Below are positions 35,894 through 58,073 of a DNA stretch of 64,000 nt, in pieces. The notes beneath the pieces were generated by a model. That model did not search any database. It was not told the DNA's origin and was given only the letters and a program-made list of their open reading frames with translations. This DNA comes from Candidatus Versatilivorator sp. Lineage in GTDB: Bacteria; Acidobacteriota; Terriglobia; Versatilivoradales; Versatilivoraceae. Made by a program: the position numbers and the translations under genes. The stretch lies in the NCBI GenBank assembly GCA_965207735.1, contig OZ242296.1:4672001-4736000 (forward strand), in the 5' to 3' direction. Position 1 is the first letter of the stretch, and each line of letters opens with the position of its first letter.

Positions 35894-38533
35894 ATGTCCG
35901 GACGAGTAATCGCAAGGGGTGTCTTGGGAGTCTGGATGGGGTGTTTCACGGCTGCGGCCGGGCTGCTTCCCGAGGCCCGGGGTCAAAGCCCTGCAGCCGA
36001 CAGGGTGGCTCTGGCGGCCCTCTTCGAAGCCACCGGTGGCGCCACTTGGAGTAATAACCGAAACTGGCTGAGTGACGAGCCTTTGGAGGAGTGGCACGGC
36101 GTCACCGTCGACGAGGGGCGGGTCACCATGCTGGATCTCAACAACAACCAACTGACGGGCGCCGTTCCGTCTGAACTGGGGGACCTCGCCGATCTGCAGG
36201 AGCTGGTTATGTCCCACAACCAACTGACGGGCGCCATCCCGGCGGAGCTGGGGAATCTCTCTAACCTGCAGCGACTGATTCTCGACAACAACCAGTTGAC
36301 GGGCTCCACCCCGGCCGAACTGGGAGACCTCGCCGACCTGCAGCAGCTGTGGCTCGACCACAACCAACTGACGGGCACCATTCCGGCCGAGTTGGGGAAG
36401 CTCGCCGACCTCCAGCTGCTGATTCTCGACCACAACCAATTGACGGGCGCCATCCCGGCCGAGCTGGGAGACCTCGCCGACCTGCAGCAGCTGTGGCTCG
36501 ACCACAACCAACTGACGGGCGCCATCCCGGCGGAACTGGGGAAGCTTGCCAACCTGCAGCATTTGGTTCTCGACAACAACGAACTGACGGGCGAGATTCC
36601 GGGGGAACTGGGGGACCTCGCCAACCTGCAGCAGCTGTGGCTCAACTTCAACGAACTGACAGGCGAGATTCCGGCCGAACTGGGAGACCTTGCCAACCTG
36701 AAGTGGCTGGTTCTCGACAACAACGAACTGACGGGCGAGATTCCGGGGGAACTGGGGGACCTCGCCAACCTGCAGCAGCTGTGGCTCAACTTCAACCAAC
36801 TGACAGGCGCGATTCCGGCTGAGCTGGGGAATCTCGCCAACCTGCAGCTGCGGTATCTCGACAACAACCAACTGACGGGCGCCATTCCGTCCGAGCTGGG
36901 AAAGCTCGCCAACCTGCAGCAGCTAGCTCTCCACGGCAACCAACTGACGGGTCCCATTCCACTGTCTTTCACCAACCTGGGGTCATTGGAATTGTTCTGG
37001 TTTCATCTGAACCCTGGTCTGTGCCATCAGCCGGGCCCCTCCATTCGGGCTTGGCTCGATGGTATCGGAGACGTCCAAGTCGCGAGCTGCCCTTTCATGT
37101 TCGTCCCCGTGCTGCTGACCTCGGCTGGGCGCAACGACGCTTTCTTCACCTCCGAGCTGACCCTGACCAACCGGGGGAGCGAAGAGGCCACCCTCGACTA
37201 CACCTACACGGCCGATGCGGGAGGCGGCAGCGGCACCGCCACCGACACCCTGCCCCCGGGGCAGCAGCGTATCCAATCCAACGCCATCGACTACCTGGCC
37301 GGCCTCGGCATCCCTATTCCCGACTCCGGAAACCGCATTGGGACCCTGAGAGTGGAGGTTTCTGGTTCCCTCGAGGTGAGCCTGACCACCCGCACCACCA
37401 CCGCCGTCCCCGACGGTCGGGCCGGCCTGGCCTACCCCTCCATCGCCGAGGAGGAGGGCTTCCAGGAAGCCGTTTACCTGTGTGGGCTGCGCCAGAACAC
37501 TCAGGATCGCTCCAACGTGGCCTTCCAGCACATGGGAGCTCCCGATGAGGGTCCCATCACCCTGAGGACCACCGCCTATTACGGGGAGGCCGACGACACC
37601 GGCTCCCTGGTGGTGGGAGAGGTGGAGCTGCAGCCGGGAGGCTTCCACCAGTACTCGGGACTGCTGGGAAGGCTGGGCACTCCGGCCCAGGGCTACGTGA
37701 AGGTGGAAAAGGTCTCCGGAGAGGCCCCGTTCTACGCCTACGGGGTCATCAACGACAACTTCAACTCGGACGGCTCCTTCGTATTTCCCCTGACCGCATC
37801 CTCCCTGGTGGGCACGACGGGACAGACCCTGCCGGTCATCATCGAGACCGGAAACTTCCAGAGCGAGCTGACGGTGACCAACTTCTCGGCCACGGACAAG
37901 ACCGTGACCTTCAGCTTCGTGGCCGAAGGGGTCGACAGAGGAGACGACACGGCCACCTTCAGCCTGAGGCTCAAGGCGGGAGAACAGCACATCCTGCCCG
38001 GTATCGTGGAGGAACTGCGACGGCGGGAGGTGGAGGGGATCGGCGGGGCTGACCGGGCCTACGTGGGAGCGCTGTTCGCCACGCCTGCCGAGGGGGACAT
38101 GAGCGGCATCGTGATCGGGGCGAGGACGGGGGCGCCGGACCAGAGAGGGGGACAGTACAGCCTCTTCTACAACGGGGTGCCCTATGGCTCGGCTTCCGTA
38201 GAGAGCGCCTGGATCTACGGGCTGCAGCAGAACGCGGAGAACCGCAGCAACCTGGCCCTGGTGAATACGGGGGAGATCGACGATACCCCCAGCACCTTCG
38301 AGATCACGATTTATGACGGCAGCGGGGAGTCTCAGCCGAGGGGCATTACCAGGACCGTCGGTCCCCACCGCTGGCACCAAGTCAACGGGATTCTGAGCAA
38401 CACCAGCCAGGGATATGTGCAGGTGCGAAAGGTTTCGGGCAACAACCCGTTCATTTCCTACGGCGTGATCAACGACGGCGGGAGGCCCGGGGAACGCAGC
38501 GGGGACGGCGCCTTCCTGCCTGCCCAGGAGTAG
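35894..38533 (+). CDS. secreted leucine-rich repeat protein (plant-type LRR) with a duplicated C-terminal beta-rich domain
   Basis: GGAGG RBS; signal peptide; LRR N-cap DRVALAALFEATGG..W..NW; twelve 24-aa LxLxxNQLTGxIPxELGxLxxL repeats. Confidence 0.9.
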   Translation: MSGRVIARGVLGVWMGCFTAAAGLLPEARGQSPAADRVALAALFEATGGATWSNNRNWLSDEPLEEWHGVTVDEGRVTMLDLNNNQLTGAVPSELGDLADLQELVMSHNQLTGAIPAELGNLSNLQRLILDNNQLTGSTPAELGDLADLQQLWLDHNQLTGTIPAELGKLADLQLLILDHNQLTGAIPAELGDLADLQQLWLDHNQLTGAIPAELGKLANLQHLVLDNNELTGEIPGELGDLANLQQLWLNFNELTGEIPAELGDLANLKWLVLDNNELTGEIPGELGDLANLQQLWLNFNQLTGAIPAELGNLANLQLRYLDNNQLTGAIPSELGKLANLQQLALHGNQLTGPIPLSFTNLGSLELFWFHLNPGLCHQPGPSIRAWLDGIGDVQVASCPFMFVPVLLTSAGRNDAFFTSELTLTNRGSEEATLDYTYTADAGGGSGTATDTLPPGQQRIQSNAIDYLAGLGIPIPDSGNRIGTLRVEVSGSLEVSLTTRTTTAVPDGRAGLAYPSIAEEEGFQEAVYLCGLRQNTQDRSNVAFQHMGAPDEGPITLRTTAYYGEADDTGSLVVGEVELQPGGFHQYSGLLGRLGTPAQGYVKVEKVSGEAPFYAYGVINDNFNSDGSFVFPLTASSLVGTTGQTLPVIIETGNFQSELTVTNFSATDKTVTFSFVAEGVDRGDDTATFSLRLKAGEQHILPGIVEELRRREVEGIGGADRAYVGALFATPAEGDMSGIVIGARTGAPDQRGGQYSLFYNGVPYGSASVESAWIYGLQQNAENRSNLALVNTGEIDDTPSTFEITIYDGSGESQPRGITRTVGPHRWHQVNGILSNTSQGYVQVRKVSGNNPFISYGVINDGGRPGERSGDGAFLPAQE
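36131..36994 (+). repeat. 72-bp coding tandem repeat, 12 units
   Basis: Recurring AACCAACTGACGGGC core at a 72-bp period. Confidence 0.9.
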
Positions 38534-54425: not shown

Positions 54426-54462
54426 GAAGTTATCCGGCGTGCGCTCCTTCGGGGCGGGGGCA

Positions 54463-54716
54463 CCACTGGCCTGAAACAACCCTGTGTCGCCGGTTCTGAG
54501 CCGCCTCGTCGTATGGGACGGCGGCGCAACCAAGTGAAAAGTGCAAAGTGAATAGTGGAGAGTGGAGAGCTATTTGATCGACCGGCACAGCATCTTGCCG
54601 GTATCGGTTCAGTCCTACAAATTAGCTCAGTCAGTTCATCAGGTGCTTGCCTGTTCCCGAAACGCTCGGCTGAGCACTCTCCACTCTCCACTGGCCTGAA
54701 ACAGCGGTGTTTCAGG
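54463..54716. repeat. heptamer inverted-repeat module bounded by 16-bp direct repeats related to the IS110 right end
   Basis: CCACTGGCCTGAAACA at 54463 and 54688; AGTGNAN tandem at 54533-54569 against CACTCTC tandem at 54675-54692; palindrome CCTGAAACA-GCGG-TGTTTCAGG. Confidence 0.7.
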
Positions 54717-54876
54717 TAGCTCCTGCCGCGCCCTACCGGGCGGATCATACATAGAGTGAAACAATCAGAAATCGATAGTCTCTTCGTGAACTTGGTATCC
54801 CGTCGCGGTCAACCTCAGCGCCTTAGTGGCCCTTCGTCGTTCTTCGTGCCCCTTCGTGGATAAGTCTTTTTCTTTT

Positions 54877-56363
54877 GAGCCTTTTGCAAAATTCGGAATC
54901 GGGCATGACATTGGGCTGGCAACAGTGATGTTCCGGCGGTGACTACCCAGCTGCAAAGACCCTTTTGAAGGAAAAAGCCCGAATCTGATGGCCGGATGGC
55001 CAGCGGTCGCCGGACGCAGGCACAGCTTACCCTCTCCCGGCCTTGAGGCGGGCGAACCTGCTGTGCGGTTGGGGGTGGCAACCCGGTCTTCAGAGCGTCA
55101 GGCGCATCAACTGATCCACCGTCAGGGCCAGAATGCCGAACATCAGGTGGCACCTCACCTTGTCGGGGCCGCGAACCCTCACCTGCCTCCCGCCAAACTC
55201 CTCCTTGAGCCGTCCGTTGACCCGCTCCACCGTCGAGCGTTCCCGGTAGCGCCGCGCCTCGGGAGTCACTTGGCCGATACAGCGCCGGGCCAGTGCCTCC
55301 CGCTTCCGCTCGGCTTTCAAGGTAGCTCTTCGGCGGGGGTTGACGTCAATAATCGGCACATGCCCCAGCTTCTCACTGAAGGCCCGGATCTCCGGCGCAT
55401 CGTAGGCGCTGTCCATCAAGTCGTAGAGACTCTCGACCCGCCTTGCCGTCAGCGTCGCCAGCGGAATGGCTGCCTGAGAGTCATGCACCGAGGCCGAGGT
55501 CAGCAGACAACTGACCGGAATCCCGCCGTCAATGGCGTCGAGGTGTAGCTTGTAGCCGGTCCAGCTCTCCTGATGCCCCTTGGCGTTGCGCTTGACGCCG
55601 ATGTCGCAGGCCTTGGGCAACTCCTTCAACATTTCCTCCAGCGTCATCGACCCCTGCCGCTCCAGCCGGCTCAACCGCTTGGGCCGTCGCTCGCCCTTCG
55701 GCGGCCGGCCCCGCCGGCGTTTCCGCTTGGCCTCCGGCGCAGCCTTGGCCGCTGGCTTTTCCCGTCCCGCAATCGCCGTCGAGTCCCTCGACACATGCCC
55801 CGCCAAGTGGCCCTTCAGCGTCTCCTCCAGCAATGCCTCGTGCAAACGCCCCGGCAGGTCGCTCTCAGCGAATTCCGCAAAGGCCCGCGAGAAGGTCGAC
55901 TCGCTCGGTACCTCCCACGCCCTCTCCCAGCCGCACAGCCGCCGCAGCCTCCCCTCACTCCTCAGCCGCTCCACCAATCCCCGCGTGGTCGCCACCTCCA
56001 GCATCGACTTCGCCAGATAGGCTCGCGCCAGCACTGCCCGATCCTCCAGCGGCCGGCCACGCCAGCCCCGACTGTAAGGCAGCAACTCCTCCACCCGCAC
56101 CAACTCCAATACCTGCACCAGCCGCTGGTAACGCTCTCCCAGAGGCCCCAAAACTTCCTCCAGCAGGGGAAACAGCTCTCGTTGAAACCGGAACCAGTGT
56201 CGTGATAGGGTTTCCCTAAGGGGCAAGTTCCACCTCCGTTCATCATGTGGTTCAGACACCTTCATGATACAACAGACAGTGGTCTTGCCCCTCCTTCCAC
56301 CTGCCCTCCTTGATCTTTCCCCACGTGAAAATTCCCGCTATCTGCGAATTTTGCAAAAGGCTC
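54877..56363 (-). mobile_element. insertion sequence, IS1182/IS5-like, copy 2
   Basis: Same 19-bp inverted repeats as copy 1, TTTT flanks and identical ORF translations. Confidence 0.92.
55090..56265 (-). CDS. DDE transposase (IS1182/IS5-like)
   Basis: Protein identical to that at 7265-8440. Confidence 0.92.
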   Translation of the reverse strand: MKVSEPHDERRWNLPLRETLSRHWFRFQRELFPLLEEVLGPLGERYQRLVQVLELVRVEELLPYSRGWRGRPLEDRAVLARAYLAKSMLEVATTRGLVERLRSEGRLRRLCGWERAWEVPSESTFSRAFAEFAESDLPGRLHEALLEETLKGHLAGHVSRDSTAIAGREKPAAKAAPEAKRKRRRGRPPKGERRPKRLSRLERQGSMTLEEMLKELPKACDIGVKRNAKGHQESWTGYKLHLDAIDGGIPVSCLLTSASVHDSQAAIPLATLTARRVESLYDLMDSAYDAPEIRAFSEKLGHVPIIDVNPRRRATLKAERKREALARRCIGQVTPEARRYRERSTVERVNGRLKEEFGGRQVRVRGPDKVRCHLMFGILALTVDQLMRLTL

Positions 56364-56443
56364 TTTTGTCTTTTTTCGTTTGTTTCAGGCGAGTCCCGCC
56401 CCCGCCCCCCACGACGGGGCGGATCATTCGAGGGTGAAACAAC

Positions 56444-56640
56444 GGATCATTGTGAAAGAATAAGCACCTGGCGAGACTCCGGCAGCTACGCCCCGTTTCA
56501 GCATTGGTGCCCCGTGCCCCAAGGCAAGTCTGGGTCCGAGCAGGTCATCATTCATTAGTGAGGCTTCCCGGGAAGTTCTCCTCAAGGCAAGAATCCGAAC
56601 GACCACGCCAACTCGGGCCGGAGCCCTCGCTCTCGAGGAG
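56444..56640 (+). ncRNA. candidate bridge RNA of the IS110 element
   Basis: About 200 nt of non-coding sequence upstream of the recombinase, with hairpins and two CAAGGCAAG motifs matching the element end. Boundaries are inferred. Confidence 0.5.
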
Positions 56641-56649
56641 GCCAATCTC

Positions 56650-58044
56650 ATGCAAAAGAGCAGGAAAGTCAACACGAAGGCGAAGAAGAAGCGCAGCCGT
56701 TCGACGGCCTTGTCGCGGATCCACCCCGAGGTGGCAGGGATCGACCTGGGGAGTCGGGAGCACTGGGTGTGCGCTCCGGAGGTAACCCCAGGGAAGCCGA
56801 ACGTGCGCACCTTCGGCACCACCATGCCGCAGTTGCAGCATCTGGCCGACTGGTTGCTGGAACAAGGGGTGGAGTCGGTGGCGATGGAGAGCACCAACGT
56901 GTATTGGATTCCCCTCTACGAACTGCTGGAGTCCTGCGGCATCGAGGTGCTGCTGGTCAACGCCCGGCAGTTGCGCTACGTTCCGGGCCGCAAGACCGAC
57001 ATGCGGGACTGCCAGTGGATCCAGTTGCTGCACAGCTGCGGCTTGCTGCGGGGATCCTTCCGTCCGCACGAGGCGATCGTCCGGGTTCGGACCCTGCACC
57101 GGCAACTGAGCACTCTGGGGGCCGAGAGTACCCGCTTTGTGCAGTGGATGCAGAAGGCGCTGGATCAGATGAACGTCCAGATCCATCGTGCGGTCACCGA
57201 TCTGACCGGTCAGACGGGGATGGCGATCGTGCGGGCGATTGTCGACGGCGAACGGGACCCGGTCCGTCTGGCGGGTCTGCGGGACCGACGGTGCAAGAAG
57301 TCCAGCCGGGAGTTTGCCGAGCACCTCACGGGCAACTGGCGCGACGAGCATCTGTTCAACCTCAAGTCGGCGCTGAAGCTCTACGACATGACTCAACGCG
57401 AGATTGCGGCCTATGAGGCCCGCATTCTGGAGGAAATCCAAGCGCTGCAACCGGTGGAGCGCCGCGACCAGCCCGTGCCGAAGCATCCCAATGCGATCAA
57501 GGAAAAGGCGATTAGCCGCCGAGGCGGGCACCACCTGCGCACCGAACTGTGGCGCTTTGCCGGGGTCGATCTGACGCGCATCGACGGCATCGGCACCGAA
57601 GCGGCCCTGACCCTGCTGACTGAGGCCGGCCTCGACCTGACGGCCTTCCCCTCGGAGAAGCACTTTGTATCCTGGCTGCGCCTGGCTCCAAAAACGGCCG
57701 TCTCCGCAGGCAAGCCGCTCCACTACAAGAAGGCCAACAGCACCGGGTCTACTCGCGCCGCCGCCGTCCTGCGCATGGCAGCCGTCTCTCTGAAGCACTC
57801 CAAGACCGCTCTGGGGGCCGCCTTCCGTCGCAAGGCCCGCCACAAGGGATGGACCGTCGCCGTCTTCTCCATGGCCCGCCGGCTGGCCGTTCTCGTCTAC
57901 CGCATGCTGCGCTACGGCCAGGACTACATCGACATCGGGGAAGCGTGCTACGAAGACCGGTTCCGGAGACGCCGCCTCGCGGGCCTCAAAGATGCTGCTA
58001 AGTCTCTTGGTTTCAACCTAGTTCCACAAATCGCAGCCGCTTGA
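56650..58044 (+). CDS. IS110 family transposase (DEDD recombinase)
   Basis: GIDLG, AMEST, KTDMRD, IDGIG, SAGK; GAGGAGG RBS. Confidence 0.95.
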   Translation: MQKSRKVNTKAKKKRSRSTALSRIHPEVAGIDLGSREHWVCAPEVTPGKPNVRTFGTTMPQLQHLADWLLEQGVESVAMESTNVYWIPLYELLESCGIEVLLVNARQLRYVPGRKTDMRDCQWIQLLHSCGLLRGSFRPHEAIVRVRTLHRQLSTLGAESTRFVQWMQKALDQMNVQIHRAVTDLTGQTGMAIVRAIVDGERDPVRLAGLRDRRCKKSSREFAEHLTGNWRDEHLFNLKSALKLYDMTQREIAAYEARILEEIQALQPVERRDQPVPKHPNAIKEKAISRRGGHHLRTELWRFAGVDLTRIDGIGTEAALTLLTEAGLDLTAFPSEKHFVSWLRLAPKTAVSAGKPLHYKKANSTGSTRAAAVLRMAAVSLKHSKTALGAAFRRKARHKGWTVAVFSMARRLAVLVYRMLRYGQDYIDIGEACYEDRFRRRRLAGLKDAAKSLGFNLVPQIAAA

Positions 58045-58073
58045 ACTGCGGGGTTGTTTCAGGCAAGCTCAGC

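What the first reader, a model, noticed from the sequence alone, without database searches (positions are those of the whole stretch)
56444..56640. Candidate self-targeting bridge RNA: two guide-like motifs both match the element's own right end
Seen: CAAGGCAAG occurs twice, at 56520-56528 and 56583-56591, with a hairpin (GAGGCTTCC-CG-GGAAGTTCTC) between them. AGGCAAG equals the last 7 nt of the element. The sequence left of the insertion site (TTTCAGGCGAG) is itself a right-end look-alike. Known: bridge RNAs have separate target-binding and donor-binding loops. Inference: if both loops read the same left half-site, every insertion regenerates a target, which would explain the tandem arrays. 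I could not assign the right-hand guides with confidence.
Basis: partly seen in the sequence, partly recalled or inferred. Interest (0 to 1): 0.82.

Follow-up and report, generated by a model that had tools for sequence, protein, structure and literature searches.

The report
Jumping gene aimed at own end
This is the predicted guide RNA of an RNA-guided jumping gene (IS110) whose target guide matches the sequence of the element's own right end, so each jump likely rebuilds a landing site and feeds chains of gene-less mini-copies, and its fourth guide matches DNA about 30 bases away behind a hairpin, on the strand opposite to the textbook one.

Summary
The motifs lie in a conserved ~150-nt RNA upstream of an IS110 recombinase (10 copies in the genome), both in internal loops of a covarying fold. 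Motif 1 tracks the left insertion flank (43 of 56 exact) and motif 2 the element's right end (51 of 59) across 61 distinct homologous RNAs, so they are the left target and left donor guides (7 nt, AG core). Most relatives have different guides. In this clade they have converged, and 26 of 26 copies sit on a right-end-type flank. A sister clade with the same donor end but another target guide does so in 0 of 9. The arrays are mostly ~182-nt mini-elements carrying both IS ends. The right guides are now assigned. The right target guide is a loose 4-mer. The right donor guide does not match the bases beside the core; it matches a box at +30 to +36 behind a hairpin, same-sense (54 of 54 at its most variable base), which suggests a folded donor. 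ISPpu9/MITEPpu9 is the closest precedent. No activity was tested.

The parts
56394..58067 (+). IS110-family element, 1,674 bp including one AG core; 10 full copies in the genome in three guide subtypes
56650..58044 (+). IS110 recombinase, 464 aa (DEDD_Tnp_IS110 + Transposase_20); candidate catalytic D32/E80/D117/D120 and S352 by recalled motif
56475..56625 (+). Predicted bridge RNA scaffold: outer stem enclosing a target loop and a donor loop of near-duplicate design
56498..56502 (+). Right target guide (4 nt plus invariant C), reverse complement of target +1..+4, loosely enforced; 5' strand of the target loop
56522..56528 (+). Left target guide AGGCAAG (motif 1); 3' strand of the target loop
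56547..56553 (+). Right donor guide ATCATTC; same-sense copy of the left-end box at 56423-56429, so it would pair with the bottom strand there
56557..56582 (+).
56585..56591 (+). Left donor guide AGGCAAG (motif 2)
56382..56393 (+). Left flank: right end of a mini-element (GTTTC, 5 nt, AG core), one mismatch to the target guide
56402..56422 (+). GC-rich DNA hairpin in the left end; starts at +8/+9 in 39 of 53 homologues, 13-21 nt long where the box-adjacent stem was called, sequence variable
56423..56429 (+). Distal left-end box matched by the right donor guide (+30 to +36 from the core)
56436..56443 (+). Left-end arm of the 8-bp sub-terminal inverted repeat
58053..58067 (+). Right end: inverted-repeat arm (58053-58060), left donor (58061-58065) and AG core; with the right flank it forms a regenerated target
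54720..56393 (+). ~182-nt mini-element with IS-like left and right ends, on whose right end the IS110 landed; interrupted by a DDE IS
54877..56363 (-). Unrelated DDE insertion sequence (43 near-identical full-length BLAST hits) inside the mini-element

Best explanation
The stretch is the predicted bridge RNA of an IS110 element whose left target guide matches the element's own right end, so each insertion likely leaves a fresh target at the new right end, where further IS copies and gene-less mini-elements likely land in turn. Shown from sequence: the fold; four guide segments that covary with their DNA partners; an AG core; all close-clade copies sitting on right ends; mini-elements with both IS ends inserted at AG; arrays of mixed units. 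Inferred: the recombinase binds this RNA and moves IS and mini-elements through circles; the target loop selects AGRCAAG and reads the right side only loosely; the inverted-repeat arm and the neutrality of these sites add preference for right ends. Also inferred: the donor is read in two separated halves, the left donor beside the core and a box 30 nt into the left end, both by pairing with the bottom strand, which a fold-back through the hairpin and the inverted repeat would bring together.
For: Fold: 33 pairs, 95.6% of cells paired, 23 pairs with two-sided changes, 0 of 500 shuffles as high, on 50 of the 61 RNAs. Guides, with ends called without using the guides: motif 1 = left flank in 43 of 56 (52 within 1 mismatch); motif 2 = right end in 51 of 59; the crossed tests are at or near chance. 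Within the genome, motif 2 and the right end switch G/A together in 10 of 10 copies. Close clade: 26 of 26 copies follow GTTTC plus a right-end-type 7-mer. Sister clade with the same donor end but target guide AGGTCAG: 0 of 9, three of them on the same contig as close-clade copies. Where the two guides differ by one base the flank follows motif 1 in 12 of 16. Mini-elements: 170 near-full units. 134 of 148 left ends, called without AG, follow AG; 15 of 27 unique flanks are within 1 mismatch of the guide against 3% background. Empty orthologous sites reading AGGCAAG: L138 for the window's site, L166 and L170 for a mini-element site. Array neighbours are each other's best match in only 6 of 80 cases. 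A direct IS-IS tandem is seen in L004. The 10 copies are the only PF01548 matches in the genome.
Against: No activity, circle or RNA end was observed (contigs only). Right ends are occupied about 8 times more often than bare guide matches, which the 7-nt guide alone does not explain. In 4 of 16 discordant copies the flank follows motif 2. Among distant relatives L063 sits on its own donor-type end, and 2 of 40 testable ones (L032, L075) carry a left-end-like unit on their right end although their guides differ. L015 and L030 have right ends matching motif 1 rather than motif 2. Array neighbours are slightly more alike than random pairs (84.8% versus 81.7%, 0.4% of resamplings). One mini-element site is empty in three relatives with a flank that does not match the guide. 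Exactly equal guides occur in only 2 of 61 RNAs. Homologues and copies are related, so counts overstate independence.
Confidence: 0.76

Rival explanations
1. Arrays grow by donor-loop half-match reactions or in-place duplication at the left-donor boundary, and the target guide's likeness to the right end is a later adaptation or incidental.
For: IS621 recombines at half-matches and donor-donor complexes (10.64898/2026.08.31.748434, abstract and discussion). Tandem units next to IS110s keep mostly left-donor matches and are ascribed to in-place duplication (10.64898/2026.08.14.744561, section 8 and passages). Here right ends are strongly over-used and neighbours slightly more alike than chance; L063, L032 and L075 show stacking with unlike guides.
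Against: The sister clade has the same donor guide yet 0 of 9 copies sit on right ends, against 26 of 26. The flank follows the target guide in 12 of 16 discordant copies, and L014's flank matches its target guide, not its donor guide. No adjacent pair of units exceeds 96.1% identity, and the neighbour's median rank is 71.5 of 162.
Confidence: 0.13
2. The 182-nt repeat is a host REP/REPIN-type repeat spread by another enzyme, and the IS110 has come to resemble and target it.
For: IS621, ISPpu9 and ISPpu10 target host REPs. The genome holds one weak Y1 transposase match.
Against: The units carry the family's own end anatomy, which is conserved in distant relatives that do not sit on such ends. 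They insert at AG behind guide-like flanks and are absent at orthologous sites. The Y1 match is more than 83 kb from the nearest called end.
Confidence: 0.06
3. The two motifs are only a by-product of an ancient duplication of one RNA loop, or chance.
For: The two loops share scaffold motifs, and some repeated 9-mer occurs in 8% of shuffles.
Against: The motifs differ by 2 or more bases in 51 of 61 RNAs, and each follows its own DNA partner.
Confidence: 0.02

Closest known systems
ISPpu9 and MITEPpu9 (ssr9 module), Pseudomonas putida KT2440 (PMC12288879: passages and the whole supplementary file; preprint 10.1101/2025.01.17.633520: abstract, sections 3, 11 part 1, 17, 18, 19)
   Same: AG core; 43-bp left box with a GC hairpin and 16-bp right box; a non-autonomous module with both ends that sits in tandem behind the IS and forms circles. 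My reading of their Table S2: the left box also has hairpin, 6 nt, CG, 5 nt and a 6-bp inverted repeat to the right box. The preprint reports three hexamers shared between the 5'-UTR and the ends, two of them named for the left box.
   Different: ISPpu9 targets a host REP whose left arm differs from its own right end at 3 of 7 bases in KT2440 (Tables S2, S6); one tandem copy is listed. It has 8 mini-copies against about 170 here. In the parts I read the guides are not assigned to loops. Mutating its hairpin still gave circles by end-point PCR. Relatedness of the proteins was not tested.
IS621 bridge RNA (PMC11208160: passages and section 12; PMC13626964: abstract and passages)
   Same: RNA in the left end upstream of a DEDD recombinase; target loop 5' of donor loop; left guides same-sense with the top strand and including a 2-nt core.
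   Different: Here the right guide precedes the left guide in each loop; the core is AG; the inverted repeat is 6-9 bp rather than 2-3; target and donor left arms are the same; and the right donor guide matches a distal box on the other strand.
IS1111-group seekRNAs (PMC11187229: abstract and passages)
   Same: Top-strand match 5' of bottom-strand match in the target loop; clear sub-terminal inverted repeats.
   Different: Their RNA usually lies downstream of the gene and the repeats (11-13 bp) lie 7 and 3 bp from the ends; here the RNA is upstream and the left arm lies about 43 nt in.
Expanded IS110 loci (10.64898/2026.08.14.744561: section 8 and passages)
   Same: Tandem non-coding units and tandem IS copies beside IS110 genes, bounded by left-donor matches.
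   Different: [quoted passage not shown]
Integron attC sites (recalled, no call) and the ISPpu10 target stem-loop (10.64898/2026.03.19.712850: abstract and passages)
   Same: DNA secondary structure as part of a recombination site.
   Different: attC is read by a tyrosine recombinase without RNA; the ISPpu10 stem-loop is in the target and its guides pair in the IS621 way.

Membership tests
IS110 family | DEDD RuvC-like domain plus Transposase_20 domain | tested here: met
   (E 9e-22, 2e-12)
IS110 family | Short core at both boundaries, precise insertion into an otherwise intact target | tested here: met
   AG at both junctions in 10 of 10 copies; empty site L138
IS110 family | Circular intermediate | tested here: inconclusive
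   no end-to-end joint in contigs of 8 runs; contigs drop rare forms
Bridge RNA | Conserved structured RNA with two internal loops in a non-coding end | tested here: met
Bridge RNA | Left target and left donor guides covary with the left arms, same-sense with the top strand | tested here: met
Bridge RNA | Right target guide complementary to the top strand just right of the core | tested here: met
   weak: 73 of 192 bases, 45 expected, 0 of 20000 permutations
Bridge RNA (IS621 type) | Right donor guide complementary to the top strand just right of the core | tested here: not met
   27 of 212 bases, 35 expected; the segment matches the +30 box same-sense instead
Bridge RNA (IS621 type) | [quoted passage not shown] | tested here: not met
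   left guides are on the 3' side, as in IS1111 seekRNAs
Bridge RNA | Expressed as a discrete RNA and bound by the recombinase | not testable with these tools
   RNA-library contigs of variants cover the region in 4 studies, without strand or ends
IS1111 group | RNA downstream of the gene; inverted repeats close to both ends | tested here: not met
   RNA upstream, left arm at +43
ISPpu9-like elements | AG core, ~43-bp hairpin-bearing left box, ~16-bp right box, end-sharing mini-element | tested here: met
ISPpu9-like elements | Recombinase in the same clade as ISPpu9 | not tested
   ISPpu9 protein not fetched
IS110-dependent mini-element | Both IS ends, no gene, insertion at the core, polymorphic presence | tested here: met
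   movement by this enzyme is inferred

The most novel reading that the evidence does not exclude
This IS110 subgroup reads a folded donor. The bottom strand of the joined ends folds back through the inverted repeat and a variable GC hairpin into a false duplex with a pre-opened bubble, and both donor guides pair with that one strand, as integron integrases read attC. One lineage has also turned its target guide onto its own right end, which makes the element a self-perpetuating, ordered array builder. ISPpu9 shares the end anatomy, so the model is testable in an existing system.
Probability: 0.45. Interest if true: 0.87.

Novelty: new variant of a known kind. Interest (0 to 1): 0.72.

Why it matters
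Bridge recombinases are being developed as editing tools on the IS621 model, in which target and donor differ, insertion destroys the target, and each loop grips opposite strands beside the core. This natural lineage appears to break two of those rules. A target guide equal to the donor end gives a concrete cause for some of the tandem arrays reported beside IS110s, and would be a natural sequential-insertion landing pad. A right donor guide displaced by 30 nt and switched to the other strand would be missed by covariation screens that look only near the core (inferred from the 25-nt donor windows in 10.64898/2026.10.21.760802). It implies a different donor geometry for a subgroup that likely includes ISPpu9. 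It also accounts for at least one abundant intergenic repeat family of this genome.

Tried and rejected
Single-sequence folding was uninformative (z 0.72); Rfam gave no match; PDB sequence search gave none; the sigma-70 scan found no promoter in 56380-56700. A canonical right donor guide beside the core was rejected. The variable segment 56597-56606 showed no diagonal against target or donor; its role and the pairing of 56543-56545 (two alternatives) stay open. The reverse-complement test of the right donor guide against the box window was also above permutation (4.2 versus 3.9 of 7), but far below the same-sense fit (6.6 versus 5.1), probably because the box is partly palindromic. The first end calls used the guides or AG and were circular; they were replaced by guide-independent calls (34, 52, 80, 87). 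41 of 121 loci examined gave no RNA hit: 4 lacked upstream DNA, one was at 57% identity and 36 were under 50%. Six loci with doubtful right-end calls were dropped from the right-guide test. The hairpin finder picked a longer alternative stem in about 15 of 53 loci. The junction folded was off by one base and was redone; both strands fold alike, so energy does not pick the strand. Of six empty-site searches, one hit a repeat and two were unresolved. The tree is the quick version only. No circle joint was seen in contigs. The plasmid search gave only relatives under 48% identity.

Full report
Observation. Both 9-mers, the hairpin and the right-end likeness are present at the stated places. They lie upstream of a 464-aa IS110 recombinase. 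The genome has 10 full copies and no other PF01548 match. Aligning the copies fixes the element at 56394-58067 with an AG core at both junctions. A repeated 9-mer is not rare by itself (392 of 5000 shuffles); two copies of the right-end 7-mer are (3 of 5000).

The RNA. From 130 homologous loci, 121 loci including the window had upstream DNA to test; 80 gave a hit, making 61 distinct RNAs at 55-100% protein identity. A 33-pair model counted on 50 of them has 95.6% of cells paired and 23 pairs with two-sided changes; no shuffle of 500 reached this, and slid controls fall to 31-59%. The model was drawn from the alignment itself, so this leans in its favour, but the top mutual-information pairs are the same pairs. 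An outer stem encloses two loops of near-duplicate design: a 5' guide strand, an inner stem, then a 3' guide strand ending in AG.

Guides. With ends called without the guides, motif 1 equals the left flank in 43 of 56 RNAs and motif 2 equals the right end in 51 of 59. The crossed comparisons are at or near chance (2528 and 384 of 10000 permutations). Several misses are mis-called ends (compare); L015 and L030 are real exceptions. Collapsed to distinct guide types, 153 of 155 and 54 of 60 bases match. Motif 1 is therefore the left target guide and motif 2 the left donor guide. The right target guide is the 4 nt before an invariant C on the 5' strand of the target loop; it pairs weakly with target +1..+4 (73 of 192, 45 expected). 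This order, top-strand match first, is the one described for IS1111 seekRNAs (PMC11187229, passages).

Self-targeting. The two left guides are identical in 2 of 61 RNAs and within one base in 10. In a quick tree the window's element falls in a 7-row clade with target guides AGRCAAG or AGGTAAG and donor ends AGRCAAG. All 26 copies of this clade follow GTTTC plus a right-end-type 7-mer. The sister clade has the same donor end but target guide AGGTCAG, and 0 of 9 copies do so; they sit in short CAGTGGT-type repeats, three on the same contig as close-clade copies. Where the guides differ by one A/G, the flank follows the target guide in 12 of 16 copies. Because the right side is read loosely, a new right end followed by almost any flank is again a target (inference). 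A relative holds the window's site empty as AGGCAAG followed by the same right flank (L138), two others hold their own arrays there, and the remaining 8 of 11 differ in ways I did not resolve.

The arrays. What the IS lands on is a ~182-nt gene-less unit whose start copies the IS left end and whose end copies the right end: 391 profile hits, 170 near full length, 56 clusters of two or more hits, plus 60-65-nt and other variants. 134 of 148 left ends follow AG when called without AG. Of 27 with unique flanks, 15 are within one mismatch of the target guide (background 3%). 126 of 203 right ends are followed by another left end. One site is cleanly empty in two of five relatives; another is empty with variant flanks in three and independently filled in at least one; a third is empty in three relatives with a non-matching flank, which I cannot explain. 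Neighbouring units are only slightly more alike than random pairs and are each other's best match in 6 of 80 cases, so arrays mostly grow by arrival of outside units. Against a guide-only account, right ends are occupied in 83 of 109 cases outside long ORFs and bare matches in 23 of 234 (crude ORF mask). A few distant relatives with unlike guides also show stacking. Protein contact with the inverted repeat, selection for harmless sites and a minor donor-loop route probably contribute (inference).

The displaced right donor guide. The segment in the donor loop that corresponds to the right target guide does not pair with the bases beside the core (27 of 212, 35 expected). It matches, same-sense, a box 30-36 nt into the left end: 53, 54, 51 and 54 of 54 at positions 3-6, with 14 expected at the most variable one, and 61 of 64 bases over 16 distinct guide types. 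Between core and box lie about 8 nt and a GC hairpin of variable sequence and 13-21 nt. After the hairpin come 12-14 nt to an inverted-repeat arm (37 of 39 called) that covaries with the right-end arm (mean 6.8 bp versus 5.3 permuted, 36 loci). Fixed spacers around a hairpin of variable length suggest that the hairpin is extruded. Read on the bottom strand, the distal part is repeat arm, about 5 nt, YG, then the 4 nt that the guide complements, which is the register the right target guide uses. A fold-back of the bottom strand would place it opposite the true core as a false top strand; the joined ends do fold this way by energy, on either strand. This model is inference. Against it, IS621 and CazIS110-1 exchange the top strand (passages), and an ISPpu9 hairpin mutant still gave circles by end-point PCR. 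An alternative is that the RNA holds the bottom strand at two places while the freed top strand folds and is transferred.

Comparison. It works like a bridge RNA and the element is an IS110-family member, but it fails two IS621-type features and is not IS1111. The nearest described system is ISPpu9 with MITEPpu9, which shares the AG core, the box anatomy and tandem mini-elements but targets a host REP unlike its own end. A 2026 preprint documents tandem units beside IS110s, states that insertion does not regenerate a target, and favours half-match duplication. Seven full-text searches and the passages read showed no description of a target guide equal to the donor end, or of a distal same-strand donor guide. 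The ISPpu9 preprint's shared hexamers come closest. Figures, bioRxiv supplements (for example the RNA classes in Fig. S12 of 10.64898/2026.10.21.760802) and most subscription papers were not visible, so this may be partly in print.

Expression. RNA-library contigs of variants cover the region in runs of four studies. Contigs give no strand, ends or level, and DNA carry-over was not controlled.

Verdict. It is a new variant of a known kind; interest 0.72, carried by the clade contrast and by the displaced donor guide.

Noticed in passing
window 54877-56363: A DDE insertion sequence with 43 near-identical full-length hits; several copies sit in the T-rich tail of the same mini-element, so two unrelated mobile elements share these arrays.
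   Followed up: partly
L017-L025 flanks; L054, L072, L103 right flanks: Sister-clade elements sit in 7-9-nt microsatellites (CAGTGGT/CAGTGAT type) that match their target guide; other relatives also have short repeats at the junction. Whether the element makes or only uses these repeats is unknown.
   Followed up: no
G000 right ends, e.g. C1:466511, 758920, 3825076: 12 of 77 array-terminal right ends are followed by a further RCAAG, a 5-nt repeat of the end; this may reflect use of the first AG of AGRCAAG or a staggered exchange.
   Followed up: partly
G000 C1:2633157 versus L162, L164, L165: The empty site in three relatives has five different bases where G000 has GCAAG, as if the insertion converted the left arm to the donor sequence.
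   Followed up: partly
L035, L073, L080, L098 left flanks: Distant relatives whose flank is a family-type right end; in L035 and L073 it matches the target guide and another member's donor end, not their own. Elements may piggy-back on relatives' ends. The sister clade's target guide equals the family's commonest donor end.
   Followed up: partly
L001-L016, left end +1..+5: The first five bases after the core vary between otherwise near-identical copies (L001 versus L002; L010 versus L007), consistent with their not being read by a guide.
   Followed up: partly
window 54455-54719: A different repeat mosaic, with inverted right-end-like arms ending AGGCCAG and GGAGAGT-type short repeats, lies left of the mini-element.
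   Followed up: no
window 36058-37005: A 72-nt tandem repeat array, not examined.
   Followed up: no
L005 right end: An IS copy whose right end is missing just after the gene.
   Followed up: no
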